Source of the DNA: an uncultured virus (IMG/VR IMGVR_UViG_3300020577_001549)
Taxonomy: Duplodnaviria > Heunggongvirae > Uroviricota > Caudoviricetes
Strand: one strand, 5' to 3'
IMG/VR virus record: IMGVR_UViG_3300020577_001549
Length of the DNA stretch: 64,000 nucleotides
The notes under the pieces are model-generated. The model had not been told where the DNA came from. It worked only from the letters and a program-made list of their open reading frames with translations, and searched no databases. Positions 20,320 through 41,351 of the stretch are shown in pieces. A program made the position numbers and the translations under genes. The number at the start of each line of letters is the position of its first letter. Position 1 is the first letter of the stretch.

Positions 20320-20703
20320 TCACGGCGCTTTAGGTTTGCGTTTAACCGGCGCTCTTGTTCCGCCGTCATCTTCGGTGAGTGGCTTTGTATGAAGGTGGTA
20401 ATTGGATCGGGCGAATTGTGGGTCATCGAGCATCACCTCCAGCACGCTCAGGTTCGTTTCGTTGACGACCATGGCAAGGCCACCGGCTTCGTCAATTCTT
20501 TTAAGGTTCAAAGTTTGCAGGTCGGTGGGCTTGTTGTTGCCCGCCTTGGCCTCGATGCCGATGAACCGTCCTTTGAGACAAGCCAGAATGTCTGGCGTGC
20601 CGTTGTTGGCAGAGATGCCGCCGATGTAGTTGACCGCGTAGGCCCCACGCGCTTTGAGCATCGCGTGGATTTTGGCCTTGACCTTGGACTCAGGCGTTGC
20701 CAC
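20320..20703 (-). CDS. VRR-NUC domain nuclease (resolvase-like)
   Basis: TPESKVK, GTPDI, FIGIEAKA, PTDLQ motifs; GTG start inferred. Confidence 0.85.
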   Translation of the reverse strand: MATPESKVKAKIHAMLKARGAYAVNYIGGISANNGTPDILACLKGRFIGIEAKAGNNKPTDLQTLNLKRIDEAGGLAMVVNETNLSVLEVMLDDPQFARSNYHLHTKPLTEDDGGTRAPVKRKPKAP

Positions 20704-20941
20704 GCAGTACCTCGGCAAGCTTCATCTTGTAATGCTGGAATTTGCCAGCGTCGTCGCTGTCCTTCTTGCCAGCACGCATGCCGTACTTCACGCAGTTGCC
20801 CTTCAAGAACCCGATGAACTCCTCGCGGGTCAAGACTGCTTCCATCACGGCCCATGGCTGCACGCCCATGTCCTTGTAGTGCTGGCCACCGATTTGCAAC
20901 TCGTCAGCGGTTGCGTGCATTGTGACTTTGTGTTCGCTCAT
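20690..20941 (-). CDS. DUF3310 / T7 gp1.7-like nucleotide kinase family protein
   Basis: GGQHY, GFLKGNCVKY-RAGKK, DAGK-HY motifs. Confidence 0.8.
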   Translation of the reverse strand: MSEHKVTMHATADELQIGGQHYKDMGVQPWAVMEAVLTREEFIGFLKGNCVKYGMRAGKKDSDDAGKFQHYKMKLAEVLRGNA

Positions 20942-21192
20942 GGGTTTTCCTTTTTGACAGTGAACATTTTGCCCTTGCCGTGGTTGGCCACGGTGTGTGG
21001 GGCGGTGCTTTTCTTTGAGTCTTTGCCGTAGGAGTAGATGCTGCTGCTGGCAGTCATGTCCTTGGATCGCTCTGGGATGGGTGTCGGTTTGACGCACAGG
21101 ATGCCCAGCGAGTTCTCGCGCCAGTTGAAGGCGTTGTGCATGGATTTGGGGGTGCCATCAGGCCACTTGTGGATCATCGAGAAACCTTTCAA
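20938..21192 (-). CDS. Hypothetical protein
   Basis: Coupled ORF in the operon. Confidence 0.55.
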   Translation of the reverse strand: MKGFSMIHKWPDGTPKSMHNAFNWRENSLGILCVKPTPIPERSKDMTASSSIYSYGKDSKKSTAPHTVANHGKGKMFTVKKENP

Positions 21193-21652
21193 TTATGGGA
21201 CGCATCTTTTTCTGACGCAGATTTTCTAACACATCTTGCATGGCAAACTCCAGCTCCCGCACGGTTGCGGCTTCGAGCTGCGCGTCATGCACCTGCATGC
21301 CAAGGTTCAGGGCTTTGAGTTCTTCACCGCGCACAATGAACTTGTTGCCGTTTGCCACACCCCTGCGGGCCAGCTCCAGCAGCTTGTCTTGCGCGTCTTG
21401 AATCTCAGGCAGCCAGTCCTCGCCTTTACCGCGCTTGGCCAACGCCTCGGCCACGTTCATGGCGTCGATGATGGCATCAATGTCGCGGCGTGTGGCTTCG
21501 CCTTTGCGCAGGTTGTTCATCGAGTCGTAGTTGCGAATCTTGAGCGTAGTGCCCGCACCGATTTCATCGACTTTTTTCATGCCCGCTCTGACCCACGACA
21601 TGGTGTCGATGATGACACCTTTGGGCCTGTACTTGCTGCGTTTTCTGGTCAT
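21158..21652 (-). CDS. Hypothetical protein
   Basis: 164 aa, coupled ORF. Confidence 0.7.
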   Translation of the reverse strand: MTRKRSKYRPKGVIIDTMSWVRAGMKKVDEIGAGTTLKIRNYDSMNNLRKGEATRRDIDAIIDAMNVAEALAKRGKGEDWLPEIQDAQDKLLELARRGVANGNKFIVRGEELKALNLGMQVHDAQLEAATVRELEFAMQDVLENLRQKKMRPIIERFLDDPQVA

Positions 21653-21891
21653 ACGAATCCAAGTTCTTTTTTGAAGGCTGACAAGCCCAATATCATGTCA
21701 TGTGCTTGCGCATAGTCAAGGCACACGTAGTAGTCCTGCCGAATGGTATCGGTGGTAGGGAACTTGGCAATGAACCCATTGCCGGTGTCAGTGACCTCGC
21801 ACAGCGCGGCGTTTTTGACGTGTGGGGAGTAACCTTCGCCAGCATGCACAAAGGACGTTTCCCCGACGCGGGTGACGAGTTCGATGGTCAT
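21649..21891 (-). CDS. Hypothetical protein
   Basis: ATGA overlaps on both sides. Confidence 0.65.
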   Translation of the reverse strand: MTIELVTRVGETSFVHAGEGYSPHVKNAALCEVTDTGNGFIAKFPTTDTIRQDYYVCLDYAQAHDMILGLSAFKKELGFV

Positions 21892-22181
21892 CGTTTATCC
21901 AACCAGACCGTGTGGGTCTTTGCTTTGGGGTTCATCTGTTGGCGGAACGTGTACTCGCCCACGATTGCCTTGTTGCGCTCGTAGCGAGCGTACGCTTTTT
22001 TGAGCGCGGACACTTCATCTGTCGGCAGGACGACTGCCACATCATTGAGCAGCATGTGATCGAAGTTCTTGTCGTACTTGGTTTCGCCCTTGCTGTGCTT
22101 GGGTGTCTGCGGTTTGGGCACGTAGGTGAACTCCCCCTCGGGTGGCTTGGGCATCACCCATGCAGTTTTCGGCTCAGTCAT
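21888..22181 (-). CDS. Hypothetical protein
   Basis: Start MTEPKTAW with GAGGA upstream; ATGA overlap. Confidence 0.65.
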   Translation of the reverse strand: MTEPKTAWVMPKPPEGEFTYVPKPQTPKHSKGETKYDKNFDHMLLNDVAVVLPTDEVSALKKAYARYERNKAIVGEYTFRQQMNPKAKTHTVWLDKR

Positions 22182-22276
22182 AGCGGGGCGTCCTCGTGGT
22201 TGTTTGGGTTGAATGGAATGGGCTTGTGGCCCTTGTCTTGTGGCGGTGGGCCGCCGATGGGGAATGGCCACGTCAT
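22178..22276 (-). CDS. 32-aa peptide (MTWPFP...)
   Basis: GGAGGA RBS; ATGA overlaps on both sides. Confidence 0.55.
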   Translation of the reverse strand: MTWPFPIGGPPPQDKGHKPIPFNPNNHEDAPL

Positions 22277-22443
22277 TCGTCCTCCTCCTCGGCGTCCATG
22301 TGGTCGTGGATCACTTGCACTTTGGCCAGCTCCAGCACGCCAATCGCTGTCGCCACCGGCATGGACTCGCTGTACTTGTAGACCACGGCCAGCACCTCGT
22401 CCAGCATACCCTCGGCCAGCTTCATTGGGTTCAGGTTGTTCAT
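22273..22443 (-). CDS. Hypothetical protein
   Basis: AAGGAG RBS; acidic C-terminus. Confidence 0.6.
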   Translation of the reverse strand: MNNLNPMKLAEGMLDEVLAVVYKYSESMPVATAIGVLELAKVQVIHDHMDAEEEDE

Positions 22444-22712
22444 GTGTTCTTCTCCTTGATTTTGGCTTCGATGGCTCGGTACATTGCGCCAAGGCCACGC
22501 ATTACTTTGCCGCGCCATTGGAATTTCTTTCGGCTCGGCCAGTAGTCGAGGCGTTCGCCGTTGATGCTTCGTGACCAGTGGTAAGGCGTGTGCTTTGTCC
22601 ATTCTCCAGCATCGTCGGTCATGGCCTGCTTGAGAAATCGCTCGCGGTCGGCGTCAAACTTGGTTCGGCTGTGCTTTTTCAGCGCGTCCCAGATTGGATC
22701 GCGGTCGGTCAT
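22440..22712 (-). CDS. Hypothetical protein
   Basis: HW...LDYWPSRKKF motif; coupled ORF. Confidence 0.7.
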   Translation of the reverse strand: MTDRDPIWDALKKHSRTKFDADRERFLKQAMTDDAGEWTKHTPYHWSRSINGERLDYWPSRKKFQWRGKVMRGLGAMYRAIEAKIKEKNT

Positions 22713-22948
22713 GCGTCCCCCTTGATGCCGTGGGCGGCTTCGATGGCTCGGGTGATTTGGAGCATTTCCGATAAATACGGCCAGCGTGTGTTTGTCCCGA
22801 TGGCTTTCGCAATCTCCTCATCCGTCAGCGGCTTGCGCTGTGCTGGTGGGGTGGTATAGAGGGCATCAATTGCGTCGTTCCAACCACGGTTGTACAGACG
22901 CACTTCCATGGAATCGCAATCGCGTTCTGGTTTTTTATCCGGCGTCAT
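22709..22948 (-). CDS. Hypothetical modular protein ending AAHGIK
   Basis: LYTTPPAQRKPLTDEEI...ARAIEAAHGIK-type modules. Confidence 0.65.
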   Translation of the reverse strand: MTPDKKPERDCDSMEVRLYNRGWNDAIDALYTTPPAQRKPLTDEEIAKAIGTNTRWPYLSEMLQITRAIEAAHGIKGDA

Positions 22949-23039
22949 TTTTGTTCCTTTCTCCAGCCATGTAGCCGAGTACAAACGCCACTACTGCCAC
23001 GAAAAGCAAATAGGCAATATGGTCATGCGTCCAGCTCAT
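22935..23039 (-). CDS. Small membrane peptide
   Basis: MSWTHDHIAYLLFVAVVAFVLGY...; AAGGAG RBS. Confidence 0.5.
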   Translation of the reverse strand: MSWTHDHIAYLLFVAVVAFVLGYMAGERNKNDAG

Positions 23040-23320
23040 GCGTTCTTCTCCTTGATGCCGTGGGCGGCTTTCATTTCGCTCAGGTGGCGGCTTGTTTCTC
23101 TTTCGATGTGGTGCTGGACCCGCTTAATGGCTTGCGCTGTTTCGTAGTCAAGATCAAACCCCCACGCAGTTTCATCCTCTTCCAAATTGCGGGGGTTGCC
23201 TTCATGCATACACGACCCGCAAGGTGCCGACAGGTGGCACGCGCAATTCCCATCTCCATAAATAGCGTAGAAATCATCTGCCAGTTCTTGCGCCCATGGT
23301 TTGAGTTGTCGTTCTGTCAT
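23036..23320 (-). CDS. Hypothetical Cys/His (Zn-binding) protein ending AAHGIK
   Basis: CACHLSAPCGSC motif. Confidence 0.7.
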   Translation of the reverse strand: MTERQLKPWAQELADDFYAIYGDGNCACHLSAPCGSCMHEGNPRNLEEDETAWGFDLDYETAQAIKRVQHHIERETSRHLSEMKAAHGIKEKNA

Positions 23321-23323
23321 GTA

Positions 23324-23638
23324 TTACTCCTTGATGCCGTGGGCGGCTTTCAGTTTGCGCAGCAACTCGACTCGCTCCATATCCCATGCCTTTTGTTTGT
23401 CCGCCATTGCGCGGTTGCCGATGCTGTCGCACCGCAATGCGTGATCAAGTTGAACTTCGATCATCCCGTCTATCAATTCAAGTTCGCGGGCCGTCAGCGG
23501 TTCCTGCTGCTGTGCTGGCTTACGCAAGTATTCACGGGCAGCTTCAATGGCTACCTTGCTAAACTGAATTGGTCTTGTCTGCTCAGTGTGATATTCCAGC
23601 GCACTCAGCAGGTCTTCAATAAGTTCTCGGTCGGTCAT
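23324..23638 (-). CDS. Hypothetical modular protein ending AAHGIKE
   Basis: AAGGAG RBS; PAQQQEP linker. Confidence 0.65.
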   Translation of the reverse strand: MTDRELIEDLLSALEYHTEQTRPIQFSKVAIEAAREYLRKPAQQQEPLTARELELIDGMIEVQLDHALRCDSIGNRAMADKQKAWDMERVELLRKLKAAHGIKE

Positions 23639-24063
23639 TGTGGCTCCTTGTGAATCCAAACTTCTACGCCCGTGTCCGGAGTTTTGTAATCCAGCTCGGG
23701 GTTGCACCAGCAAGGCGACCCGTCAGTAATGTGATCTCGCTGCTGTGCTGGCTGTGGTGATGTGTAGAGCATCCACCTTTCTTCAGGGTCGGTCTTGTCA
23801 AAACCATCTTTGTCTGTGTGCATCCAAGCACAGTGCGCTTTCATCCAAACCAAATACACCGGCTCCTGCTGCTGTGCTGGCTGTGCTGCCTTCAGACCAT
23901 CGTTGTACCCAGCCACATAGTTTGGTGAATACTTCAGACCATCCTTGCTGCGTGTTTTGGGATCAATCTGCTGTGCTGGCTGCTCTGTACCCCGTTGCAT
24001 GATTTCAGGGAATCGTTCCCACATCATTTCAAGCAAGTGCTTGTCTGTAATTGGTGCTCTCAT
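23635..24063 (-). CDS. Hypothetical modular protein with PAQQ linkers
   Basis: Three PAQQ repeats; C-terminal CWCNP. Confidence 0.65.
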   Translation of the reverse strand: MRAPITDKHLLEMMWERFPEIMQRGTEQPAQQIDPKTRSKDGLKYSPNYVAGYNDGLKAAQPAQQQEPVYLVWMKAHCAWMHTDKDGFDKTDPEERWMLYTSPQPAQQRDHITDGSPCWCNPELDYKTPDTGVEVWIHKEPQ

Positions 24064-24215
24064 GCTGTCACCTCGCGCATCTCCCAGCCCATCTTGAAAT
24101 AATTCCAGCGGGTCTGGAGTGACGGATTCAGGTATTTGCCTTTGTCGGATTGGCTGAAGTCCGTATGGCCTTTGGTGCGCATAATGGCTTCAAATACTTG
24201 CTGCGTCTTGGTCAT
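24060..24215 (-). CDS. Hypothetical protein (51 aa)
   Basis: MTKTQQVFEAIM... read manually; ATGA overlaps. Confidence 0.6.
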   Translation of the reverse strand: MTKTQQVFEAIMRTKGHTDFSQSDKGKYLNPSLQTRWNYFKMGWEMREVTA

Positions 24216-24445
24216 AGCCCCACCTGCTTCAACGCGGCTTGCAGCCCCGCCAGTCCACCGACACGTTGGTCGTCGATGAAGATTTGAGGCATCTGGCGAA
24301 TGTCGGGGTGCCGCAGATTGAACGCCATGAGCTCGCTTGGGTCATCGACGTTGCGCTCGACGTAGCTGAGCTTTTTGCTTTGCAGGAGTTGCTTGGCGTG
24401 CTCGCAGTTGGGGCACGCGCTCTTGGTGTACATGACGATTTTCAT
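24212..24445 (-). CDS. Glutaredoxin
   Basis: CPNC active site; MPQIFI, VGG motifs. Confidence 0.9.
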   Translation of the reverse strand: MKIVMYTKSACPNCEHAKQLLQSKKLSYVERNVDDPSELMAFNLRHPDIRQMPQIFIDDQRVGGLAGLQAALKQVGL

Positions 24446-24568
24446 TTGGTGTCTTTCAAAAAGGTGAAGATGTGTGCACTGCACCGAGCACACACATAGA
24501 TGTGCATGTCGGGTGAGCGGTAGGGGTGGCCAAACTCAGTGGGCTCCCAGCGATGTTTGCAGTCCATG

Positions 24569-25027
24569 TCAGCCCCCGAAAATGGTTTTGAGTTCGTCGT
24601 ACATCTCACGCGCTTGCATGACGTTCATCTTGGCGATCATGGCCTTCACATCGGCGTCTACCGGCGGCGCTGGGAGCGTTGCGGGTGCTACAACCACTGG
24701 GGCTTCGGTTCGCACAACTCGCTCAGGCTTGGGGGTAGTGCGCTTGAGCGGCGCGTACTCTTGCTGGTTGGCGTACAGCAGACCGTTGGACTCCCTCACG
24801 TTGCCGTTGATGACGAATGTGGAAAGCAACGACGTGGACGACGATTGTTTAACGCCCAGCCCCGCCAGTGCGGCCACAGCTTGCGCTCGTGTCGTGCCCG
24901 GGTTGTCGCGGACGTACTCGAATGTGCGGCGTGTTGAGTTGGTCGTGACGTTGTGCCCGTTGATGATAGTTGTGGGGGTTTCCCACGACTGCAGGACTTT
25001 GGCCATTTCAGATTTGAGATCAGGCAT
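24569..25027 (-). CDS. Putative winged-helix DNA-binding protein
   Basis: FEYVRDNPGTTRAQ pattern; AAGGAG RBS. Confidence 0.55.
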   Translation of the reverse strand: MPDLKSEMAKVLQSWETPTTIINGHNVTTNSTRRTFEYVRDNPGTTRAQAVAALAGLGVKQSSSTSLLSTFVINGNVRESNGLLYANQQEYAPLKRTTPKPERVVRTEAPVVVAPATLPAPPVDADVKAMIAKMNVMQAREMYDELKTIFGG

Positions 25028-25553: not shown

Positions 25554-25564
25554 TTCTTTTAACC

Positions 25565-26056
25565 TTAAAACAATTCGCCTTGGGCGGGTTTGAGGAGAGC
25601 AGCGAGGTTGGGGGGTGTCCAGCCTTCGGGTTTGAGAATCTTGCCGTCTTCGCGGCGGCGCACAGCGCCCGTCACAGGGTCGATCTTGGCCATGTTGGAA
25701 CGCACGACTTCTGCCCAGCCTTCGTTCATGGGCCAGCCGCGTGACAGGCCGTAGCCGATCAGCACCACGATCTGATCAAGCACCGCATCGAACTCGTCCA
25801 CTTCGTTGTCCGCCAGCTTTGCATCCAGCATTTCCGTGCGCTCTTCATCAATCAGCTCACGGTACATCTCGGCTTGCGCCGGGTTTGGTTTGTTCGTTGT
25901 CTGCCCACACGCACGCATGAAGAGGGCTTGCTCCTCAAATGCGGTCATGGGCTGGCTCTGCTTCATGTCCAAGCGTTCGCTCAGTGCTTTGATGATGCCG
26001 CCTTGGCCGTCGGCCTCGCGGATGAGTTCGTTGTCAGTCAAGTTGTCGTAATTCAT
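25565..26056 (-). CDS. MazG-like all-alpha NTP pyrophosphohydrolase
   Basis: LIDEERTE, DAVLD, EVVRSNMAK, REDGKILKPEGW. Confidence 0.85.
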   Translation of the reverse strand: MNYDNLTDNELIREADGQGGIIKALSERLDMKQSQPMTAFEEQALFMRACGQTTNKPNPAQAEMYRELIDEERTEMLDAKLADNEVDEFDAVLDQIVVLIGYGLSRGWPMNEGWAEVVRSNMAKIDPVTGAVRRREDGKILKPEGWTPPNLAALLKPAQGELF

Positions 26057-27274: not shown

Positions 27275-27285
27275 TTCTTTTAACC

Positions 27286-27555
27286 TTAAAAGTTTGGTTC
27301 GTCTTTGTTGATCATCGCTGTCAGTTTGATGGCCTCCACAAAGTCGTCGGCCACACACTGGATACTCAGCCACTCATGCGGCTGCTTGACTTCAATGGTG
27401 GGGACATACGACTTCTGGTAGCCCTGCGAGCCTTTGCCGGTGCCCACATGGTGTTCACCAAGCTGCTCCGCGTCCTGCACGACGGTCATCAGCGTGTCCA
27501 GTTGTTGTTGAGTCAGCAGAAGCATTCTGCCGCCTATCGAAATTTGAAATCTCAT
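27286..27555 (-). CDS. Hypothetical protein
   Basis: GAGGAG RBS; stop codon lies inside a palindrome copy. Confidence 0.65.
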   Translation of the reverse strand: MRFQISIGGRMLLLTQQQLDTLMTVVQDAEQLGEHHVGTGKGSQGYQKSYVPTIEVKQPHEWLSIQCVADDFVEAIKLTAMINKDEPNF

Positions 27556-28826: not shown

Positions 28827-28827
28827 G

Positions 28828-29835: not shown

Positions 29836-29854
29836 AGTTTTAACCTTAAAAGAT

Positions 29855-31045: not shown

Positions 31046-31069
31046 GGTGGTTCTCCAAAAGTTTTAAGG

Positions 31070-31624
31070 TTAAAAGTTGATGCGGAAGGGTTTGATGCTG
31101 TCGAGCCTGTCGGCCAGCGCGTTGTGCTCGTTGACCAGCTCCGGTGACCGACATGCTGACACGAGTTCCGCGATCTGTTTGTGGATGGTCGGTTGGTAGA
31201 TGCTCATGTGGATGCGGTGACGCTCGTTGAGAGCCGCAAGGATGCGGTCGTATCGCTCGTGGGTGAACTTGGCACTGCTGGAGTCAACATTGGCCAGCTC
31301 AACCATGCGTGCCGCGCAGATCAGCTCAGTGATTTGCTCACGCGCACTTGCTGTCAGCACACAAGGGGCAAACCCCACACCCCAGCTTGTCCATGTAGCC
31401 CATGCTTTGTGTGTGCTGTCGTCCAGCACTTGCTCAGCCAGCACTTGCTCAGCCAGTAGGCGAGATTGGCTACGGTAGCCTCCATGCAGAACGCCATTGC
31501 GCAGCATCTTCTGCGCTACGCTCTTGACGCGCTTGGAAATTTTTGTTGGGTCGATGGTGGCGGTCACTTGCAATCCGGGCAGGTGCCGAATCTTGCGAAC
31601 CATGTCAAATGCGTTGCTACTCAT
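31070..31624 (-). CDS. Hypothetical protein
   Basis: 184 aa; short tandem LAEQV duplication; stop inside a palindrome copy. Confidence 0.65.
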   Translation of the reverse strand: MSSNAFDMVRKIRHLPGLQVTATIDPTKISKRVKSVAQKMLRNGVLHGGYRSQSRLLAEQVLAEQVLDDSTHKAWATWTSWGVGFAPCVLTASAREQITELICAARMVELANVDSSSAKFTHERYDRILAALNERHRIHMSIYQPTIHKQIAELVSACRSPELVNEHNALADRLDSIKPFRINF

Positions 31625-31635
31625 GATAGTTGCCT

Positions 31636-32952: not shown

Positions 32953-32961
32953 CTTTTAACC

Positions 32962-34029
32962 TTAAAAGTATTTGCCCAGCTTGGCGGCTGCCGCTGTGAA
33001 CTTGCGGTTACTGCACGCCATCGACACCTTGGCTTTGTTGGATGCCAGTGCAGTGATGAACAGCGCGTAGGCCTCGAACGATGACTCGCTCACACGATCA
33101 GCGTAGGTCATGACAGGGTCGAGGTTGCCAGCATCGACACGGCCAGCCAGCATGAAGGCGAGGATGAACAGTGAGCCGACGCTGGTGGGCACCTTGGTCT
33201 TGGTTGGGTCTTTGACGATTGTCTCGAACAGCGGCAACTGGTCGGCCAGATGCACCAGAGCCTCCATGTCACGAGCAGCAGACTCGCCCAACGTGCCAGC
33301 CAGTGCTGGCAGCAAGGCAGTGCCGAGCACGTCACGATTGGACACGATGTTCGATGCCTTGGCCAAAGAGCGAGGCGAGCAGAAGGCACGCACGTTGCCG
33401 GTCAATGGGTTGAAGATGTAGGGGTTCTTGTCGCCTTTGGCGAGGTCAGCGTACGAGTCGAACACCTGTGGGTACTGCTTGGCGAAGGCCATCACCTCGG
33501 GGGCGATGTTGGCACCCGATGCCCACGACAGCCACTCGTCGCTGGTTGGGTTGGCCACAGTCACGACGGTCATACGGTTGAACGCATGGGCAGGGATGTT
33601 GTCACCCACGCCGTCCGTTTCAAGGTTGGTTGTGCCGAACACAATCGAGCCGGTGGGCAGGGGTACGTCACCGATGCGGTGTTCGAGGATGACAGGCAAC
33701 AGCATGTTGAGCACAGGGCGGCTAGCTTTGCCCAGCTCGTCGAGCATCAGCACGACAGGGCGGGTCTGGTCACGGCCCACACCGAAGCGCACGTTGGGTG
33801 CGTAGCTGGTGGTCATTGCGTCCTTGTCGATGACAGGCATACCCAAGTCACCGAGGTCAAGGTTGGCCACGTCGATGTAGCACACTTGGTAGTCAGGCAG
33901 TTCACGCTCAAGCGTCTGCAAGATAGAGGACTTGCCGATGCCGGGCTGGCCGCGCAAGAGCAGAGTGTTGGTGGTGCCGATGTTGCGGATCAAAGTTGCG
34001 GCTTGGGTCAGGTTGATAGACAGAGACAT
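32962..34029 (-). CDS. MoxR/CbbQ-type AAA+ ATPase
   Basis: GQPGIGKS, LMLDE, SPRS sensor; partner vWA gene nearby. Confidence 0.9.
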   Translation of the reverse strand: MSLSINLTQAATLIRNIGTTNTLLLRGQPGIGKSSILQTLERELPDYQVCYIDVANLDLGDLGMPVIDKDAMTTSYAPNVRFGVGRDQTRPVVLMLDELGKASRPVLNMLLPVILEHRIGDVPLPTGSIVFGTTNLETDGVGDNIPAHAFNRMTVVTVANPTSDEWLSWASGANIAPEVMAFAKQYPQVFDSYADLAKGDKNPYIFNPLTGNVRAFCSPRSLAKASNIVSNRDVLGTALLPALAGTLGESAARDMEALVHLADQLPLFETIVKDPTKTKVPTSVGSLFILAFMLAGRVDAGNLDPVMTYADRVSESSFEAYALFITALASNKAKVSMACSNRKFTAAAAKLGKYF

Positions 34030-34081
34030 GATGATTTCCTATGAGAAGTTTTAAGATTAAAAGAATGGACTTGCGTCCGGC

Positions 34082-35058: not shown

Positions 35059-35162
35059 ACGAAGTACCATCCTTTCGGTTTTCTGTTTCTCGGCCCGTTG
35101 AACTCGCATGTCTCACGGAACCCAGTGCGCGGGCATCGCCGCCAAATCGTGTAGGTCGTCAT
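35055..35162 (-). CDS. Hypothetical peptide (35 aa)
   Basis: MTTYTIWRRCPRTG... starting 2 nt after a palindrome copy. Confidence 0.45.
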   Translation of the reverse strand: MTTYTIWRRCPRTGFRETCEFNGPRNRKPKGWYFV

Positions 35163-35172
35163 ACTTTTAACC

Positions 35173-35376
35173 TTAAAGCTTTGCGCCGTACACTGAATGC
35201 ACGACAGGGCGTGTGGGTCTGTCTACTGTGCCCACCACTTGCGTGATGACGAAATCATCGGCGGGGCTCTTGGCGAACAGCTCCGTGAGCCGTCCCATGA
35301 TGGTGCCGTAGTCGCTTGCATAGCAGACAGCTTTGCCGCCTTGCAGCAGAATAAATTCTCCGTGTCTGTGGGTCAT
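35173..35376 (-). CDS. Hypothetical protein
   Basis: GGAGG RBS; stop inside a palindrome copy. Confidence 0.6.
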   Translation of the reverse strand: MTHRHGEFILLQGGKAVCYASDYGTIMGRLTELFAKSPADDFVITQVVGTVDRPTRPVVHSVYGAKL

Positions 35377-36423: not shown

Positions 36424-36454
36424 GACTATTCTTTTAAGCTTAAAAGTTTGCGGC

Positions 36455-36984: not shown

Positions 36985-37390
36985 GATTGGTTTCCTTTAA
37001 GCTTAAAAGTTCAGCCCGCACATGACAGGCGGGCATGAGCAGTACGGCACGGTGATCGCCGCATGCGGCCAAGAGCTTGACTGCGTCCACCGGCATGAGC
37101 AGCACATCATGGCTGTCGTTCCATGCAACCAGTGCGGCGATAACGCCCCAAGCTGCGGCCCAAGCTCCGCCCTGATGTGCGTCCCAAACTGCGTCCCGAG
37201 CTGCGTCCCAAACTGCGTCCCGCGCGGTGTCCCGAGCGGTGTCCCGAGCGGTGTCCCGAGCTGCGCCCCAAGCTGCCTCCCAAGCTGCGGCCCGAGCTGC
37301 CTCCCAAGCCTGTGGGTGTGATGTGAGTGTGGCCAAAACCCAGTCGATGTGCTTGGCGTTGGGCAGGTGTGCCCATGCTGTGGTGGTCAT
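36974..37390 (-). CDS. AWDA/ARDA tetrapeptide-repeat protein
   Basis: 12-bp repeats at about 37150-37310. Confidence 0.75.
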   Translation of the reverse strand: MTTTAWAHLPNAKHIDWVLATLTSHPQAWEAARAAAWEAAWGAARDTARDTARDTARDAVWDAARDAVWDAHQGGAWAAAWGVIAALVAWNDSHDVLLMPVDAVKLLAACGDHRAVLLMPACHVRAELLSLKETNHGT

Positions 37391-37638
37391 GGTTGTTCCT
37401 CACTTCCAGTTTGCTTTAAGCTTAAAAGAATGATCACCTTGACTGCGGCTTTGGCCTCGTCCAGTGTGGTGATGCCTTCGAGCGGGGTGGCGTAGGAGAT
37501 CATCGACCGATCAAGCGAGTCGCCAATCTTGAAGCTGTACTTCCCGTATGAGCAGTACACCGCGCCCAGCGACGGCAGGTTGAGGTCACTGTATGCAACC
37601 CAGAGGCCGTTAACAAATCTCCAATGAAAGTCATTCAT
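37387..37638 (-). CDS. Hypothetical protein (paralog family, TTLDEAK); first gene behind the early promoter leader
   Basis: MNDFHW start; AAGGGGAG RBS. Confidence 0.7.
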   Translation of the reverse strand: MNDFHWRFVNGLWVAYSDLNLPSLGAVYCSYGKYSFKIGDSLDRSMISYATPLEGITTLDEAKAAVKVIILLSLKQTGSEEQP

Positions 37639-37639
37639 A

Positions 37640-38139
37640 AATATCTCCCCTTATATACATTCAATAGTACATGGATGTCCATGTACTACAAGATATATAC
37701 ATATCTTTGGACTGCGATAGCGTGTGTCAGACTGGCATATCCCGGCTGTGCCGGTTCCAGTGCTCAAGCGTTCATCATGATTTCTCAGAGAGGACCGCAC
37801 GCATTTAGGCAGTGTGCCTGTGCATTGCATGGTGCTTTCTTCTTCGGTGGCGCTGGCCACACTACTCATACTCCACACCATGCCAAGGGCTGAACCTTGA
37901 CGCCTTCTCGTCTGTGGGAAGTGATCACATATCTATGTCGGGGGCCACAAGGGAAACCCCACGGTCTAGCCTAATTCCTACTACACGACTTTTGCATTGT
38001 TGCAACGGCGGCTTGATCGATGCCAAGAGTTTTAAGGTTAAAAGTTCTTGGTTAATCTTACGTGTCTATGAATTGTTAAAGAGCGAGAGCGCCACATGAA
38101 TAAGGGTCGCTGTGAGTTGGAGACGATTCTCAACTCGAT
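37640..38139 (-). ncRNA. Candidate structured leader / non-coding RNA (about 500 nt)
   Basis: Lies between a near-consensus promoter and the first gene; many hairpins; no convincing ORF. Confidence 0.4.
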
Positions 38140-38145
38140 ATATGT

Positions 38146-38174
38146 ATTGTACCACATAATAGGTATTGTGTCAA
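38146..38174 (-). promoter_or_regulatory. Strong sigma70 early promoter
   Basis: TTGACA-17 nt-TACAAT with extended TG. Confidence 0.85.
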
Positions 38175-38191
38175 GCCTTTTCTATACGTTC

Positions 38192-38218
38192 TGGGGGGCA
38201 CGTTGGCCCCCCATTTTT
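38192..38218 (+). terminator. Intrinsic terminator-like hairpin (U-tract on the + strand)
   Basis: tggggggc/gcccccca stem followed by ttttt. Confidence 0.5.
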
Positions 38219-38505
38219 CAGCCGTTTGCGATCTTCATGATGTCCTCGGGTGTCATCCCATGGAACTCAGCCAGCTTCTCCACGTCCCGGCCGAGGGCCA
38301 CGAACTCTTTGATGCGGGCGTTTCGTGCCTCGATGTCTGTCTTGAGGTAGGCAGTCAGCGCGTCGTGCAGGGCTTGGTCCAGTGATCCGCCTTTGGCCTT
38401 GAGGTCGTTGACCACTTTGATCGGCAGGACCAGCTCGACGGTGTGCATGGCTGGTGTGTGTGGCTTGGCCGGTGTGGCGCTGCGCAGTGGGGGTGTGGGC
38501 CGCAT
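38218..38505 (-). CDS. Putative small DNA-binding protein (RHH/HTH-like)
   Basis: LDQALHDALTAYL and VEKLAEFHGMTPEDI; GGGGGA RBS. Confidence 0.55.
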   Translation of the reverse strand: MRPTPPLRSATPAKPHTPAMHTVELVLPIKVVNDLKAKGGSLDQALHDALTAYLKTDIEARNARIKEFVALGRDVEKLAEFHGMTPEDIMKIANG

Positions 38506-38519
38506 GATAGTTCCCCCTC

Positions 38520-39428
38520 TCAGAACCCGAACTCAGGGTCGTACACATCGCGCTCTTTGGCCGTGCGGGTGTCCACTGGCGGAGCGTCTGCCTGTGCTGC
38601 CTTGGCAGCCTCCAGCGTGGGCATCACGAAGCGTGGCTTGGCCGGAACATTTAAGCTTAAAACTTCTGAGGGTTCGTCCGGTGTGGTGCCGTAGTTCTCG
38701 TACGCCGTGAACGCTGCATAGATACTGGTGGCCTTCTCTGACTTGGACGAGTGCGCGGTAACGAGGCCAGAGTACGCTGCATAGGCAGCCTGCACCCTGT
38801 CTGCATCGAGGTTGTACTTCTGGGCAGCGTCAGCGGCGCTCATTCCCACCAGCATTTCCAGCATGGCATCCCCGATGGCCGTGTGACGTTTGAACTGCTC
38901 GCGTGCCTCCACCTGCTCAGGGGTTTCGGGGTGGGCCACAAGGTTGCGGGTGGGTTTGGCCTTGGGTGTGGGGGCCTCGGTGGTGTCTGTGGTGTCGGTA
39001 TCGGGTTTGGGGCGTCGGCCACCCTCGCCGCGTGCAGCACGCTCGTGTGCAATGATCTGCCCGACACGCACCAACGACAAGTTGAACAGGATGGCCACCT
39101 GTGAATAGGTCTTGCGCTGATGGGTCACAGCGGCATAAATGGCAGCGTCGCGCTCGGTGTTTACCTTGGGCCGACCGACAGGTGCGGGTGCGGCAGGGGC
39201 GTTGAGGGTGCGTTGGGCATGGAAGATGGCCTCTCGCAGGGCTTTTGCAGTGGTGGTATCTGATGCGTGGGCCAACGATTGCAGGGCGGAGTAGGCCTCT
39301 TTCCCCATACCACTATATAGCTTGAGGGCCAGTGTGGTGGCATGTTCGATGGTGCCTTCGTGCCATTCGGTCAGCTTTTGGGCTGCGGCGGCAGGGATTT
39401 CGATGGTTACGGTGCGGAGTTCTGACAT
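38520..39428 (-). CDS. Multi-HTH putative transcriptional regulator
   Basis: GRPK, ERDAAI...TYSQVAILFNLSLVRVGQII HTH; second GMSAADAAQKYNL HTH; GAGG RBS. Confidence 0.65.
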   Translation of the reverse strand: MSELRTVTIEIPAAAAQKLTEWHEGTIEHATTLALKLYSGMGKEAYSALQSLAHASDTTTAKALREAIFHAQRTLNAPAAPAPVGRPKVNTERDAAIYAAVTHQRKTYSQVAILFNLSLVRVGQIIAHERAARGEGGRRPKPDTDTTDTTEAPTPKAKPTRNLVAHPETPEQVEAREQFKRHTAIGDAMLEMLVGMSAADAAQKYNLDADRVQAAYAAYSGLVTAHSSKSEKATSIYAAFTAYENYGTTPDEPSEVLSLNVPAKPRFVMPTLEAAKAAQADAPPVDTRTAKERDVYDPEFGF

Positions 39429-39519
39429 GATAGTACCTCGGGTGGTTGTGGTGGTATGCCGTTTGAAGGGCGGATTGGAGTGTACCACAAGTGCTATGGG
39501 ATGAAGTTTTAACCTTAAA

Positions 39520-40035
39520 AGATTGGTGAAATCATTGGGGGATGAGGGGTAAATGAGTGGTGGTATTGGATGGGGACGTTACAGGTTACAAAAGATTTTT
39601 TGATGTTACAAAATGAACAATGGGGATGTAGTAGGTATTGTGCGCCCAGTAAAGACGCGGGTTGGCGGGGCGATGGCGTACCTATTATAGATTGGGGTTA
39701 CAGATGCTACAAAGGGGGGTTTACAAACCTGAGACCCCAAAAGGGCACAAACTTTTAAGATTAAAACAATGCAAGCACCCGCCAAAGCCTCGACCAAATC
39801 CCCCAGCTTTCATGATCCCCCAAAAGCCTGTACATCTGTAACGCTCTTTAATAATAATAATATATACTATATACTCTCTCTCTCTCTCTCGTGCATTTGT
39901 ACACTGCAGTATTAGCCTGAAGATATCTAATTATCTTTAACTTTCTCGTTACGGCGTACACACCCCGATTTCCCCCTGTTTGTAACGTGTTACCAAAGCC
40001 AGATACTACCCATAGAATCTTTTAACCTTAAAACT
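39520..40035. other. AT-rich non-coding region with GTTACA repeats; candidate replication origin
   Basis: GTTACA at 39578, 39585, 39605, 39697; TGTAAC at 39837, 39981; AT-rich core with (ATA)n and (CT)n. Confidence 0.45.
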
Positions 40036-40199
40036 TCGGAGCCGCCTCGCCGCGCACGCCCGGTGCCTGCTGCTCATGCCGCCCTCCCGTGCCCTCGCTC
40101 TCGCGTGCGGGCTCGCGCACTCGCCCTCGCTCTCCCACACGGTCGCACTACTATCACGCGCCCCGCGCGGTGGCGGGGCTAGGCGGAAAAGTACAGACG

Positions 40200-40223
40200 A
40201 AAAAAAGCCCGCCGAAGCGGGCT
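40200..40223 (-). terminator. Intrinsic terminator
   Basis: AGCCCGC-TTCG-GCGGGCT followed by a T tract. Confidence 0.85.
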
Positions 40224-40235
40224 GGGGGGTGCGGG

Positions 40236-40430
40236 TCAGTGTATGTCAACATCATAGGCCACCAACACCACGCCTTCGGGGCCACGCCCCTCAGAGTCCC
40301 ATCGGGCCGCCACATCCTCGTCAACATAATCAATGGCCTCATCTTGGCTATCGAACGCGAGTTCCACGCCTTGCAAGTCAGCCATAAATTCCCCAGTGGT
40401 GCGGTCCATCCAAGTGTAAATCGTTTTCAT
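40236..40430 (-). CDS. Small acidic hypothetical protein
   Basis: AAGGA RBS; FDSQDEAIDY motif. Confidence 0.65.
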   Translation of the reverse strand: MKTIYTWMDRTTGEFMADLQGVELAFDSQDEAIDYVDEDVAARWDSEGRGPEGVVLVAYDVDIH

Positions 40431-40454
40431 TTTGTGTTCCTTTAAGGTTAAAGA

Positions 40455-40476
40455 GGACAACCCCTAGGGGTTGTCC
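40455..40476. repeat. Perfect 22-bp palindrome GGACAACCCCTAGGGGTTGTCC
   Basis: Intergenic; adjacent to the palindrome copy at 40440. Confidence 0.8.
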
Positions 40477-40484
40477 AATGTGGT

Positions 40485-41021
40485 TTACTTCTTAGCCAAG
40501 ACGGTTTCTTGGAAGTTGTCCAGGCGGTCGAGGCAAAGGTCAAGCATATCGGCCGCAAACTCAGTCAAACCCAACAAACGGGCCTGTGCAAGTGCCTTGG
40601 TTAAGGTTTTGTCCAAGTCCGTGCGGGTAGTGCTACTCACGCCCCCTGTCACTGGTGGCTTACCATTGCCGGTGGATTCACCCTCCGGCTTGTCTTTTTT
40701 GTTGTTAAGGTCACGCTGGAAGGGGATACCCTGCTCAAACGCAATCCAAAAGGCAGACTGGTAACTGGCGGCACTGGACTTGCTTACAAAACCGGCTTCG
40801 GTGATGGCGTCAAACATGGCTTTGATCTGACCGCGTGCAGGGTTTGTCTTTGCGTTGCCTTTGAGGAATTCAGCCTTTGGCTTGTCGCACGCAATCCACA
40901 TTGCGTCAAGGGCTTGATTGATAGCCTTGTCTTGGATGGCGCGAGCCTTTGCGACGGCTTTGGCTTCGCCCTCGAAGGACTTAATAACGCTGGTGATGAG
41001 GGTCTGATTGATAACGGACAT
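40485..41021 (-). CDS. Hypothetical early protein
   Basis: AAGGA RBS; own promoter. Confidence 0.75.
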   Translation of the reverse strand: MSVINQTLITSVIKSFEGEAKAVAKARAIQDKAINQALDAMWIACDKPKAEFLKGNAKTNPARGQIKAMFDAITEAGFVSKSSAASYQSAFWIAFEQGIPFQRDLNNKKDKPEGESTGNGKPPVTGGVSSTTRTDLDKTLTKALAQARLLGLTEFAADMLDLCLDRLDNFQETVLAKK

Positions 41022-41068
41022 GATGTTTTCCTTTAGGTTGTATCGCAACACAGTGCTGCGATGGATGA

Positions 41069-41097
41069 ATTATGCGCCTACTCATACATAATGTCAA
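41069..41097 (-). promoter_or_regulatory. Sigma70 early promoter
   Basis: TTGACA-17 nt-CATAAT. Confidence 0.8.
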
Positions 41098-41351
41098 CCC
41101 CTTACCTATACATTCAAGGTTAAAAGTTCCGGCCCCCTCGACCCCACCACACCCCGACCCCCACTTGTGGCAATGGGACTCCGCCCATCCGCTTACGCTG
41201 AGCGCAACATCCGCGACCGCCTCTAAAAATCCAAACTATATATAATTAACCCCCACCCCCTTATATACAGAAACACCCCCGTCAAAAAATAAAACCCCAT
41301 CCTCAAAAATTACAATACAATCCGCCCATCATCAGGAGCGCTTTTTCCTCC

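What the first reader, a model, noticed from the sequence alone, without database searches (positions are those of the whole stretch)
20499..41125. About 18 copies of an AT-rich palindrome (TTTTAA-NN-TTAAAA) marking gene junctions of the early region: candidate operator or cassette-site system
Seen in sequence: in a GC-rich genome the 14-bp dyad occurs exactly at 25557, 27278, 29838, 31062, 32954, 34049, 36432, 38030, 39507, 39753 and 40020, and with 1-2 mismatches at 20499, 35165, 36995, 37414, 38649, 40440 and 41112. I saw none in the structural blocks (1-10 kb, 41.3-64 kb). The arms are conserved while the central 2 nt vary (CC/GG/GC/GA). Five genes take their stop codon from the motif (ORFs ending at 25565, 27286, 31070, 32962, 35173; proteins end ...F* or L*). 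Eleven copies lie 1-23 nt upstream of the next start codon. Three are kept inside coding sequence as L-S-L-K/N codons (36995, 37414, 38649). One lies just upstream of the -35 of the 41069 promoter and one lies inside the early leader. Inference: this fits a binding site for a dimeric protein spread across a whole operon, functionally reminiscent of mycobacteriophage stoperators. Alternatively it could be a crossover site at which accessory gene cassettes are swapped. One orientation contains TAAGG (SD-like), but inverted and GC/GA-centred copies show that an RBS role alone does not explain it. The multi-HTH protein at 38520-39428, with a copy inside and one upstream, is the best candidate binder.
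Basis: partly seen in the sequence, partly recalled or inferred. Interest (0 to 1): 0.82.

Follow-up and report, generated by a model that had tools for sequence, protein, structure and literature searches.

The report
Private palindrome tiling phage early genes
An uncultured freshwater phage carries about 18 copies of one short AT-rich palindrome only in its early-gene arm, and each related phage has its own mirror-symmetric version at the same places, which points to a fast-evolving DNA docking site whose reader protein is still unknown.

Summary
TTTTAA-NN-TTAAAA occurs 11 times exactly (0 expected) and 19 times with up to 2 mismatches (0.35 expected). All copies lie at 20499-41125, the leftward early arm of a ~64-kb uncultured tailed phage.

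The main new result is comparative. About 140 related metagenomic loci and 10 near-complete genomes each carry their own palindrome at the same junctions, for example TTCTAA..TTAGAA, TTATAA..TTATAA or TCTTAA..TTAAGA. Both arms change together, and copies within one genome are almost uniform (median purity 0.97).

One copy sits 12-16 nt upstream of the -35 box in 37 of 50 distinct early-promoter regions. An intragenic copy is rewritten by class at the cost of the protein sequence. RNA hairpins are negligible, and mismatches show no G-U bias.

The best reading is a DNA-level dyad site for a dimeric, lineage-specific binding protein that controls the early arm (confidence 0.45). The multi-HTH protein, an XRE-like protein and the first early protein all fail covariation tests. 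Use as recombination joints is a secondary effect at most.

The closest published analogue is the 17-bp dyad repeat of Cluster O mycobacteriophages. This scan noted the same phenomenon in a related genome before (e1-5973259).

The parts
20499..20512 (.). Palindrome copy with 1 mismatch, inside ORF 20320-20718 (endonuclease-like)
25557..25570 (.). Exact copy. It holds the stop codon of 25565-26056 (MazG-like) and lies 3 nt before the ATG of 25020-25553.
27278..27291 (.). Exact copy. It holds the stop of ORF 27286-27564 and lies 3 nt before an ATG of the core gene 26291-27373.
29838..29851 (.). Exact copy just after the DUF2201 gene 29855-31045, 2 nt before the ATG of 29581-29835. At this same junction relatives carry their own class of palindrome.
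31062..31075 (.). Exact copy. It holds the stop of 31070-31624 and lies 17 nt before the ATG of the DUF2201 gene, which has a separate GGAG.
32954..32967 (.). Exact copy. It holds the stop of the AAA ATPase gene 32962-34029. A strain-level replacement in run X3 starts inside this copy.
34049..34062 (.). Exact copy between 34082-34813 and the AAA ATPase gene, 20 nt before the ATG at 34029
35165..35178 (.). Copy with 1 mismatch. It holds the stop of 35173-35376 and lies 2 nt before an ATG.
36432..36445 (.). Exact copy, 8 nt before an ATG at 36423. Strain breakpoints in runs X3 and X7 lie at its edge (36447-36450).
36995..37008 (.). Copy with 1 mismatch, in the 3' end of 36974-37390 and 10 nt before the ATG of 36700-36984
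37414..37427 (.). Copy with 1 mismatch, in the 3' end of 37387-37638 and 23 nt before the ATG of 36974-37390
38030..38043 (.). Exact copy in the leader about 100 nt downstream of the second consensus promoter
38649..38662 (.). Copy with 1 mismatch, inside the C-terminal part of the multi-HTH gene 38520-39428. In relative G006 a copy lies between this gene and the next.
39507..39520. Exact copy 78 nt upstream of the ATG of the multi-HTH gene. A TG-n-TACACT (extended -10-like) element follows 22 nt downstream; that is my reading of the sequence.
39753..39766 (.). Exact copy inside the conserved non-coding hub
40020..40033 (.). Exact copy inside the conserved non-coding hub, after a GC-rich run
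40440..40453 (.). Copy with 2 differences from the pattern that compensate each other (CTTTAA-CC-TTAAAG, still a perfect palindrome). It lies 9 nt before the ATG of 40236-40430 and just after the hairpin 40455-40476.
41112..41125 (.). Degenerate copy (2 mismatches) 14 nt upstream of the -35 hexamer of the first early promoter. The equivalent place holds a class-matching palindrome in relatives.
41069..41097 (-). First early promoter, sigma-70 type (TTGACA-17-CATAAT, 11 of 12)
38146..38174 (-). Second consensus sigma-70 type promoter (TTGACA-17-TACAAT with TG), preceded by the terminator-like hairpin 38192-38213
39430..40205 (-). Conserved non-coding hub between the terminator 40206-40223 and the multi-HTH gene. 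It holds a GC-rich run, three palindrome copies, TGTAAC/GTTAC-type repeats and a (GA)n/(TA)n AT-rich core. It is a candidate origin or control region.
38520..39428 (-). It has local HTH fold matches to sigma region 4, Mu C/Mor and KorA. It was tested and rejected as the class-specific reader.
40485..41021 (-). First early protein (178 aa, all-helical, no fold match). It is the only protein common to all classes whose divergence is linked to palindrome class in the sub-clade, but the mapping is not consistent.

Best explanation
The 14-bp palindrome is the core of a dyad-symmetric site of about 22 bp (consensus AAAC-TTyTAA-SS-TTArAA-S-TTT). It works as double-stranded DNA and is bound by a dimeric, sequence-specific protein. 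That protein is most likely phage-encoded, and its specificity differs between lineages.

The sites sit upstream of the first early promoter, over or next to the promoter of the multi-HTH gene, in the leader of the second early promoter, and in nearly every real intergenic gap of the early arm. A bound protein there would most plausibly shut down or gate host-polymerase transcription of the whole early arm as infection proceeds. It could do so by operator occlusion at promoters and by roadblock or silencing at internal sites.

Shown here:
- The copies are real and confined to the early arm.
- The symmetry is of the DNA type.
- Both arms switch together between relatives.
- Copies within one genome are near-uniform.
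- The position at the early promoter is conserved.
- The DNA sequence is selected even inside a coding region.

Inferred only: that a protein binds, that it is phage-encoded, and that the effect is repression. Because the sites are short shared homologies, they also serve now and then as crossover points. I read that as a by-product.
For: 1. Enrichment and confinement. There are 11 exact copies against 0 expected and 19 near copies against 0.35 expected, all within 20499-41125. In 10 related near-complete genomes the top palindrome has 8-17 copies, all in one contiguous arm.

2. Mirror-symmetric class switches. Relatives carry TTCTAA..TTAGAA, TCTTAA..TTAAGA, TTATAA..TTATAA, CGTAA..TTACG, TCTAAT-ATTAGA, or spacers of 3 or 4 at the same junctions. 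At the junction after the DUF2201 gene, L054 and L056 have near-identical coding flanks but TTATAA-CC-TTATAA versus TTCTAA-GC-TTAGAA.

3. Uniformity within a genome. In 82 loci with at least 6 copies the median purity is 0.97, and 73 of 82 are at 0.8 or higher. Neighbouring protein alleles are shuffled across classes.

4. Coupled arms. Among copies that differ from their genome's consensus in both arms, 14 are mirror-symmetric and 12 are not. My rough estimate for independent mutation is about 1 symmetric copy.

5. A DNA-level place. In 40 of 50 distinct early-promoter regions a palindrome (5+5 arms, at most 1 mismatch) ends within 34 nt upstream of the -35 box, and in 37 of them it ends 12-16 nt upstream. 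That stretch is not part of the early transcript.

6. Selection on the DNA inside a gene. In 11 of 35 unique members of the family of window gene 24569-25153 a copy lies in a linker. It reads K-T-L-K-V-K-T-S, K-S-Y-K-V-I-T-S or K-T-S-K-V-R-T-S according to the genome's class.

7. Against an RNA structure. The RNA minimum free energy is 0 to -2.1 kcal/mol in 7 of 7 copies folded. Single mismatches are no more often G-U compatible on the sense strand (30) than the mirror C-A/A-C type (43).

8. No orientation. The centre reads CC in 158 and GG in 143 of 606 copies on the sense strand.
Against: No reader was found.

- In the sub-clade with three classes, 25 plus-strand protein families were tested column by column. 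The only class-specific columns were those encoded by the intragenic motif itself.
- Of 34 opposite-strand ORF families, one had two such columns. It is probably an antisense ORF over a motif, but I did not check it.
- The multi-HTH protein has the same helix (SEIRVHQIVA) in all three classes.
- The XRE-like helix is nearly invariant.
- The first early protein is class-linked in identity (79.5% within class versus 46.6% between classes). However, one protein type occurs with three different classes, and its model has no DNA-binding fold match.

Some genomes carry two classes: 6 of 82 loci have purity below 0.7, and L032 has one class in each half. Strict one-reader specificity is therefore not absolute.

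The copies are tightly tied to start codons, with distance peaks at 3-5, 11 and 15-17 nt. The 5' flank AAAC follows the direction of transcription and not the orientation of the centre. An operator does not require either feature.

The replication and late regions of most relatives were not covered, so a reader encoded there would have been missed.
Confidence: 0.45

Rival explanations
1. The palindromes are primarily recombination joints. They would be short conserved linkers (stop codon, palindrome, ribosome-binding site) at which early-gene cassettes are inserted, deleted or swapped between co-infecting relatives. Their uniformity within a genome would come from copying and gene conversion, not from a reader protein.
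For: - Hybrid motifs (TTCTAA-CC-TTATAA) lie exactly where the gene downstream of DUF2201 is replaced in L022 and L023. Further hybrids occur in L013 and L023.
- Among class-A relatives a different gene follows the motif after DUF2201 in L003, L004, L005, L007, L064 and the window.
- Gene-order maps show a unit '[motif] f39' present in G006 and G010 and absent in G001.
- Contigs of other strains show replacements with one end in or at a motif: 32732/32964, 36196/36450 and 36447/36173.
- 26.1% of 839 blastn homology ends lie within 15 bp of a motif centre, against 2.5% at random.
- No co-varying reader protein was found.
Against: - The enrichment is confounded, because both homology ends and motifs sit at gene boundaries.
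- Other strain indels have no motif at their ends: 22448/23327, 32047/32148 and 35408/35461.
- In L137 the two classes are interleaved and all six copies listed are symmetric, so its crossovers lay elsewhere.
- Motifs flank conserved core genes at conserved places, and many variable genes are not bounded by them.
- Copies upstream of the early promoter, in the non-coding hub and inside a coding linker are kept and class-matched.
- The protein-family scans of the window's ORFs named no integrase or site-specific recombinase.
- Copying alone does not explain why the two arms stay mirror images.
Confidence: 0.15
2. The element acts in the mRNA. It would be an AU-rich translational enhancer or operator, or a nuclease processing site, placed just 5' of the ribosome-binding site wherever genes are not translationally coupled.
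For: - Copies sit at fixed short distances from start codons, with peaks at 3-5, 11 and 15-17 nt among 696 unique copies.
- In most classes the motif is followed by CTTTTGGAGAA-N5-ATG. In the window's class the AAGG of the motif itself lies 9-10 nt before the ATG.
- The 5' flank AAAC is on the sense strand whatever the orientation of the centre.
- Motifs occur at junctions with real gaps, while overlapping genes have none.
Against: - A class-matched copy lies upstream of the -35 box of the early promoter in 37 of 50 distinct regions, outside the early transcript.
- Copies also lie in a 700-bp non-coding hub far from any start.
- Hairpins are negligible, at 0 to -2.1 kcal/mol.
- There is no excess of G-U-compatible mismatches on the sense strand (30 versus 43).
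- The two halves of a DNA palindrome are different sequences as single-stranded RNA, so an RNA-binding dimer would not drive mirror-symmetric change (inference).
- The late genes have no copy.
Confidence: 0.12
3. The motif is a lineage-specific promoter, or a loading site, for an unrecognised phage RNA polymerase or polymerase-redirecting factor. The logic would resemble the private promoters of T7-like phages.
For: - One motif precedes each mini-operon of 1-4 tightly packed genes.
- The number of copies, the private sequence per lineage and the restriction to one temporal arm recall phage-polymerase promoters (recalled knowledge).
- After the terminator at 40206-40223, no consensus sigma-70 promoter was found on the early strand before the multi-HTH gene.
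Against: - The element is symmetric, with its centre in either orientation (CC 158 versus GG 143), so it carries little direction.
- No RNA polymerase was found in 50 proteins scanned with PHROGs or in 32 scanned with Pfam. The 1917-aa virion protein has no match to a solved polymerase.
- Two perfect host-type promoters already drive the arm.
- The start codon lies only 2-20 nt after many copies.
- A -10-like element follows the copy before the multi-HTH gene at distances that vary from 8 to 22 nt among relatives (my reading). That fits an operator better than a fixed promoter element.
Confidence: 0.08
4. The sites serve another DNA transaction. They could be loading or boundary sites of a clamp or partition-type protein (KorB/ParB-like or MatP-like logic), replication-linked sites around the candidate origin, or targets of a dimeric nuclease.
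For: - Three copies flank the conserved non-coding hub with its AT-rich core and iteron-like repeats.
- Restriction of the sites to one genome domain recalls domain-marking sites (recalled knowledge).
- Earlier notes of this scan on other phages tied similar palindromes to ParB/KorB-like proteins.
- The multi-HTH protein shows a local HTH match to KorA.
Against: - No ParB-type domain was found in the 32 proteins scanned with Pfam.
- The fold matches are weak (no E-value at or below 0.001).
- Most copies are far from the hub.
Confidence: 0.1

Closest known systems
17-bp dyad repeats of Cluster O mycobacteriophages (Corndog and relatives; PMC4351075, passages read)
   Same: Both have many copies of a short palindrome with invariant arms and a variable centre, in a phage that is not obviously temperate. 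In both, many copies are intergenic or near gene starts and some lie inside genes. Neither shows orientation with respect to transcription. The authors predict binding by a dimeric DNA-binding protein, and the function and reader are unknown.
   Different: The sequences are unrelated (the paper gives 5'-TGTTCGGNNNCCGAACA). The Cluster O repeats lie throughout the genome and are not closely tied to start codons. Here the copies are confined to the early arm and mostly lie 2-32 nt before a start. The passages I read describe no lineage-by-lineage rewriting of the arms. The hosts are unrelated.
Stoperators of Cluster A mycobacteriophages (PMC9283540 and PMC6550527; abstracts seen)
   Same: Both have a short site repeated many times across transcription units, in addition to promoter-proximal operators. 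In Cluster A the site lets one protein silence whole operons. The site-reader pair diverges between related phages.
   Different: Stoperators are asymmetric and are bound by a monomeric immunity repressor of temperate phages (abstract of PMC9283540). Here the site is symmetric, has no orientation bias, no repressor is identified, and no lysogeny genes were named in the scans.
PeSL (promoter-early stem-loop) cassettes of T4-type phages (PMC2839356; abstract and outline read)
   Same: Both are small conserved cassettes between non-essential early genes, and recombination at them contributes to gene shuffling.
   Different: A PeSL is a strong sigma-70-like promoter plus a terminator stem-loop. 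Here only 2 consensus promoters lie on the early strand, and the palindromes form no stable stem-loop.
Palindromic operator networks of plasmid global repressors (KorA/KorB of IncP plasmids) and the dyad sites of phage Mu Mor/C activators (recalled; structures listed)
   Same: Both involve 12-14-bp palindromes scattered over a replicon, some at promoters and some far from them. In the known cases they are read by dimeric HTH proteins. The HTH of the window's multi-HTH protein gives local fold matches to KorA, Mu C, Mor, ArdK and sigma region 4.
   Different: The fold matches are weak (best E 0.11, none at or below 0.001). The protein does not co-vary with the site class. No ParB-type partner was found.
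   Different: They are AI notes on other DNA and are not independent evidence. The present work adds the wobble test, the intragenic class rewriting, the promoter-position count and the exclusion of three candidate readers.

Membership tests
Stoperator system (Cluster A mycobacteriophages) | Asymmetric site bound by a monomeric repressor | tested here: not met
   The site is a perfect dyad; 352 of 630 scored copies match both arms of their genome's consensus. The family feature is taken from the abstract of PMC9283540.
Stoperator system (Cluster A mycobacteriophages) | Site orientation follows the direction of transcription | tested here: not met
   On the sense strand the centre reads CC in 158 and GG in 143 of 606 copies. 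The family feature is recalled.
Stoperator system (Cluster A mycobacteriophages) | An identified immunity repressor that co-varies with the site | tested here: not met
   No co-varying protein was found in 25 plus-strand families, and of 34 opposite-strand ORF families one with two class-specific columns was left unchecked. Three DNA-binding candidates were excluded.
Stoperator system (Cluster A mycobacteriophages) | Blocks transcription elongation when bound | not testable with these tools
   No RNA holder was listed.
Cluster O-type dyad repeats | Tens of copies of a palindrome with invariant arms and a variable centre in a non-temperate phage | tested here: met
   There are 11 exact and 7 near copies, with centres CC/GG/GC/GA. 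The family feature is taken from PMC4351075.
Cluster O-type dyad repeats | Shared sequence or shared ancestry with the Cluster O repeat | tested here: not met
   The arms differ (compare the motif quoted). The phage's relatives by terminase are aquatic phages at about 43% identity.
PeSL cassettes | Strong sigma-70 promoter plus terminator stem-loop in each cassette | tested here: not met
   Only 2 consensus promoters lie on the early strand in 24000-41400. Palindrome hairpins fold at 0 to -2.1 kcal/mol.
Shine-Dalgarno or start-associated sequence | Always just upstream of a start codon, directional, complementary to 16S rRNA | tested here: not met
   137 of 696 copies have no ATG within 60 nt. 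Copies also lie upstream of the promoter and in the non-coding hub. Both centre orientations occur. Most classes carry a separate GGAG.
Integron attC-type cassette sites | A tyrosine integrase and long imperfect palindromes that fold as single strands | tested here: not met
   The scans named no integrase. The element is 14-22 bp and has negligible folding energy.
Phage RNA polymerase promoters | A phage-encoded RNA polymerase and a directional promoter | tested here: not met
   No polymerase family hit was found. The element is symmetric. Transcript starts could not be tested.
KorA/KorB-type operator network | Dimeric HTH repressor, with a ParB-type partner, bound to dispersed palindromes | tested here: inconclusive
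   There are local HTH fold matches to KorA (probability 0.87, E 1.5), but no match has E at or below 0.001. No ParB domain was found in 32 proteins. The protein does not co-vary with the site.

The most novel reading that the evidence does not exclude
The palindromes are a private 'address code' for the early arm, read by a new kind of factor that ordinary covariation does not reveal. Candidates are the fold-less first early protein, a host-dependent complex, or a nucleic-acid-guided reader. Class switches would create regulatory incompatibility between co-infecting relatives. That would be an immunity-like or speciation-like barrier in strictly lytic phages, strong enough to rewrite coding sequence.
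Probability: 0.2. Interest if true: 0.8.

Novelty: new variant of a known kind. Interest (0 to 1): 0.6.

Why it matters
Repeated palindromes of unknown function have been reported in a few phage groups, with neither a mechanism nor evolutionary context. This clade of at least 140 metagenomic loci offers a natural experiment. The same junctions carry at least eight mirror-symmetric versions of one site, sometimes between genomes whose flanking genes are 98% identical. That makes the specificity code of the unknown reader directly testable by swapping one base pair per arm.

It would also show how lytic phages evolve regulatory incompatibility.

The three papers read on phage repeats and the listings of three further searches brought up no description of this clade's motif.

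Tried and rejected
- Near-identical DNA in cultured phages: none found. The first early protein has no tblastn match in 50,697 phage records.
- No whole genome is held for the window.
- RNA evidence: no RNA holder was listed, so transcript starts and ends could not be examined. The single read-laying run used DNA contigs only.
- Multi-HTH protein as reader: rejected.
- XRE/AlpA-like protein 13538-13813 as reader: rejected because its helix is nearly invariant.
- Winged-helix-like protein family of 24569-25153: its putative recognition stretch is identical in a TA-class and a TC-class genome (my reading).
- First early protein: class-linked in identity, but the mapping is inconsistent. Its model has pLDDT 80.3 and no fold match better than E 1.4. 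The Atlas gave only a 0.84 lead to DUF3102.
- Small class-specific 'ORFs' of 45-46 aa look like translations of conserved non-coding DNA that contains a motif.
- Rfam: nothing above threshold in 37800-41400. No tRNAs in the window.
- The 1917-aa virion protein has no match to a solved RNA polymerase.
- High-identity (85% or more) mosaic breakpoints against the window: only 3 ends, too few to test.
- Pelagibacter phage HTVC023P was fetched. Its layout is different and it was not analysed further.
- Complex prediction was not used, because no specific protein pair is claimed.

Full report
**What the window is.** It is an uncultured tailed phage genome of about 64 kb.
- Rightward structural and lysis genes include terminase large subunit 41906-43423, portal 43435-46032, major head protein 48923-49834, holin and endolysin 60589-61553, and a 1917-aa virion protein 4660-10413.
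- These flank a leftward block, 41051 down to 10642, of early and replication genes. That block holds an AAA ATPase 32962-34029, a DUF2201 protein 29855-31045, a MazG-like protein, DNA polymerase 17979-19877, helicase 15315-16874 and primase 10642-13470.
- No near-identical DNA exists among 50,697 phage records. By terminase, the nearest cultured phages are aquatic phages at about 43% identity.
- No RNA polymerase, integrase or ParB-type protein was named in the scans.

**The observation.** TTTTAANNTTAAAA occurs 11 times exactly, against none in 100 shuffles. It occurs 19 times with up to 2 mismatches, against a shuffle mean of 0.35.
- All hits lie between 20499 and 41125. I discount one of the 19 (39598).
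- Read on the gene strand, five ORFs end on the TAA of the motif.
- Twelve of the 18 copies lie 2-32 nt before a start codon.
- Three copies lie in a 700-bp non-coding stretch.
- One lies 14 nt upstream of the -35 hexamer of a consensus promoter (41097-41069), and one lies in the leader of a second consensus promoter (38174-38146).

**Relatives.** A search with the DUF2201 protein returned 67 metagenomic viral loci. A search with an alignment of the first early protein returned 75 loci, two of which had already been fetched. Ten near-complete relatives were fetched whole.
- The window's exact motif is present in only 14 of the first 67 loci.
- Nearly every other locus has its own palindrome as its most frequent word: TTCTAA-NN-TTAGAA, TCTTAA-NN-TTAAGA, TTATAA-NN-TTATAA, CGTAA-NN-TTACG, TCTAAT-ATTAGA, ACTAAT-ATTAGT, TCTAAG-C-CTTAGA or TTTTAAC-CA-GTTAAAA.
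- The inner TAA..TTA is constant. The outer positions differ, and always as mirror images.
- In each of the ten genomes the copies (8-17 with 5-bp arms) sit in one contiguous arm.
- Uniformity within a genome is high. In 82 loci with at least 6 copies the median share of the majority class is 0.97, and 73 of 82 are at 0.8 or more. A reversed-sequence control gave 49 hits in 141 loci, against 920 real hits in those 82 loci.

**Same junction, different class.** After the DUF2201 gene most relatives have: stop codon, AAAC, palindrome, CTTTTGGAGAA, five or six bases, ATG. The palindrome is in the class of that genome.
- L054 and L056 share 98% identical DUF2201 proteins and near-identical flanks. 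They carry TTATAA-CC-TTATAA and TTCTAA-GC-TTAGAA respectively.
- Over 606 unique copies with a 2-nt centre, the consensus extends to about 22 bp: AAAC-TTyTAA-SS-TTArAA-S-TTT.
- The centre is CC in 158, GG in 143, GC in 104 and TA in 101 copies on the sense strand, so the core has no orientation. The 5' AAAC does follow the direction of transcription.

**DNA or RNA?** Four results favour double-stranded DNA.
- Promoter position. In 40 of 50 distinct early-promoter regions a palindrome (5+5 arms, at most one mismatch) ends within 34 nt upstream of the -35 box. In 37 it ends 12-16 nt upstream (sequences). This lies outside the early transcript.
- Weak hairpins. RNA hairpins fold at 0 to -2.1 kcal/mol in all 7 copies tested. 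Six of the seven z-scores are near zero.
- No wobble bias. Among 134 copies with a single mismatch in one arm, G-U-compatible pairs on the sense strand number 30 and the mirror C-A/A-C type 43.
- Symmetry argument. The two halves of a DNA palindrome are different words as single-stranded RNA, so an RNA-binding dimer would not impose mirror symmetry (inference).

The arms also change together. Of the copies that differ from their genome's consensus in both arms, 14 are mirror-symmetric and 12 are not. My rough estimate for independent mutation is about one.

**Selection on the DNA inside a gene.** A column-by-class test in a sub-clade with three classes (CT, TC, TA) covered 25 plus-strand protein families. 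Only one family had class-specific columns.
- Those columns are encoded by a palindrome copy lying in a lysine-rich linker of the family of window gene 24569-25153.
- The DNA reads AAAAC-TCTTAA-GG-TTAAGA-CTTC, AAAAG-TTATAA-GG-TTATAA-CTTC or AAAAC-TTCTAA-GG-TTAGAA-CTTC. The peptide changes accordingly.
- Eleven of 35 unique family members carry this copy, and all eleven belong to the sub-clade. The window's own copy of the gene lacks it.

- Multi-HTH protein 38520-39428. It has an N-terminal strand-helix-helix pattern, which I read as possibly ribbon-helix-helix; the monomer model shows no strand there. It also has HTH units that give local fold matches to sigma region 4 (probability 1.00 over 44 columns), Mu C, Mor, KorA and ArdK. 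No match has an E-value at or below 0.001. In the sub-clade its HTH helix is SEIRVHQIVA (or SEIRIHQIV) in all 11 sequences of the three classes, and its two allele types occur with different classes. It is therefore not the class-specific reader. It could still read the invariant core.
- XRE/AlpA-like protein 13538-13813. It is present in all 11 genomes with a nearly invariant helix.
- First early protein 40485-41021. Its identity is strongly class-linked: 79.5% within class, 46.6% between classes, and at most 65% between classes. Core proteins are 85-90% identical between classes. In G007 it is 91-92% identical within the TA class and 41-61% to other classes. However, the same protein type occurs with TTTTAA, TCTTAA and TTCTAA classes. 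It has no class-specific columns, and its all-helical model (pLDDT 80.3) matches no solved fold.
- Opposite-strand ORF families (34, including the terminase and portal). Only one doubtful case appeared.
- Coverage gap. The replication and far late modules of the CT and TC classes were not available.

**Recombination.** Some evidence ties the motifs to gene flux.
- Hybrid motifs lie where the downstream gene is swapped in L022 and L023.
- A motif-bounded unit is present in two relatives and absent in a third.
- Strain-level replacements have an end in or at a motif at 32964 and 36447-36450. A cassette made of the motif at 40440 plus gene 40236-40460 is replaced by 17 letters in one run.

Against a primary role:
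- Other indels have no motif at their ends.
- In L137 the two classes are interleaved and all six copies listed are symmetric.
- The tenfold excess of homology ends near motifs (26.1% versus 2.5%) is confounded by gene boundaries.
- Only 3 high-identity ends were available for a clean test.

**Promoter reading.** One motif precedes each mini-operon of 1-4 packed genes, as phage-polymerase promoters do. Against this, the element is symmetric, no polymerase was found, and many start codons follow within 2-20 nt. The copy before the multi-HTH gene is followed by a -10-like element at distances from 8 to 22 nt in different relatives (my reading). That fits an operator overlapping a promoter better than a fixed promoter part.

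**Conclusion.** The palindrome is most likely a DNA docking site for a dimeric protein whose specificity is private to each lineage, used to control the early arm (confidence 0.45).

What remains unexplained is the lack of a co-varying protein, the existence of genomes with two classes (6 of 82 loci below 0.7 purity; L032 has one class per half), and the tight link to ribosome-binding sites.

The closest published case is the 17-bp dyad repeat of Cluster O mycobacteriophages. Its authors also predict a dimeric binder and do not know the function (PMC4351075, passages read). Stoperators (abstracts) and PeSLs (abstract) fail their defining features here.

It is not independent evidence.

Noticed in passing
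window 39430-40205: This is a conserved non-coding hub of about 700 bp between the terminator 40206-40223 and the multi-HTH gene. It holds a GC-rich GCGAG-type run, TGTAAC/GTTAC-type inverted repeats and a (GA)n/(TA)n AT-rich core near 39860-39905. The same layout recurs in all eight relatives of three palindrome classes that I printed. It looks like an origin of replication or a control hub.
   Followed up: partly
window 41130-41215: A conserved non-coding box (GGAGTCCCA ... GGGGTACGGTGGGGTC-like) lies upstream of the early-promoter palindrome, in the divergent region between the early and late genes. It is conserved in most of the loci printed. Its function is unknown.
   Followed up: no
L032:1-12407: This locus carries two palindrome systems: TTCTAA-N3-TTAGAA (8 copies), nearly all in the first 6 kb, and CGTAA-NN-TTACG (7 copies), mostly in the remaining half. 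It looks like a recombinant between phages of two classes.
   Followed up: partly
window 40228-40481: In one public run (X3) the small gene 40236-40460, with its motif and flanking hairpins, is replaced by 17 letters that form a small GC hairpin of their own.
   Followed up: no
window 38218-38505 and 38520-39428: These two adjacent genes are paralogues that share the N-terminal strand-helix-helix-like module. Related genomes carry one to two members of this fast-evolving family, and some members have two HTH units.
   Followed up: partly
window 29855-34029: An AAA_5-type ATPase and a DUF2201 protein (metallopeptidase-like plus VWA-like domain) lie about 1.9 kb apart in this stretch. They are among the most conserved early genes of the clade, at 85-98% identity across palindrome classes.
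   Followed up: no
window 4660-10413: This is a 1917-aa virion protein with an LPD38 domain at residues 1622-1786. It has no other family hit and no match to a solved structure.
   Followed up: partly
window 22067-23400: Contigs from four metagenome runs pile up here to a much higher summed depth than over the rest of the arm, with many joints and loose ends around 22440-22830. This suggests a segment shared with other, more abundant genomes, or a hypervariable spot.
   Followed up: no
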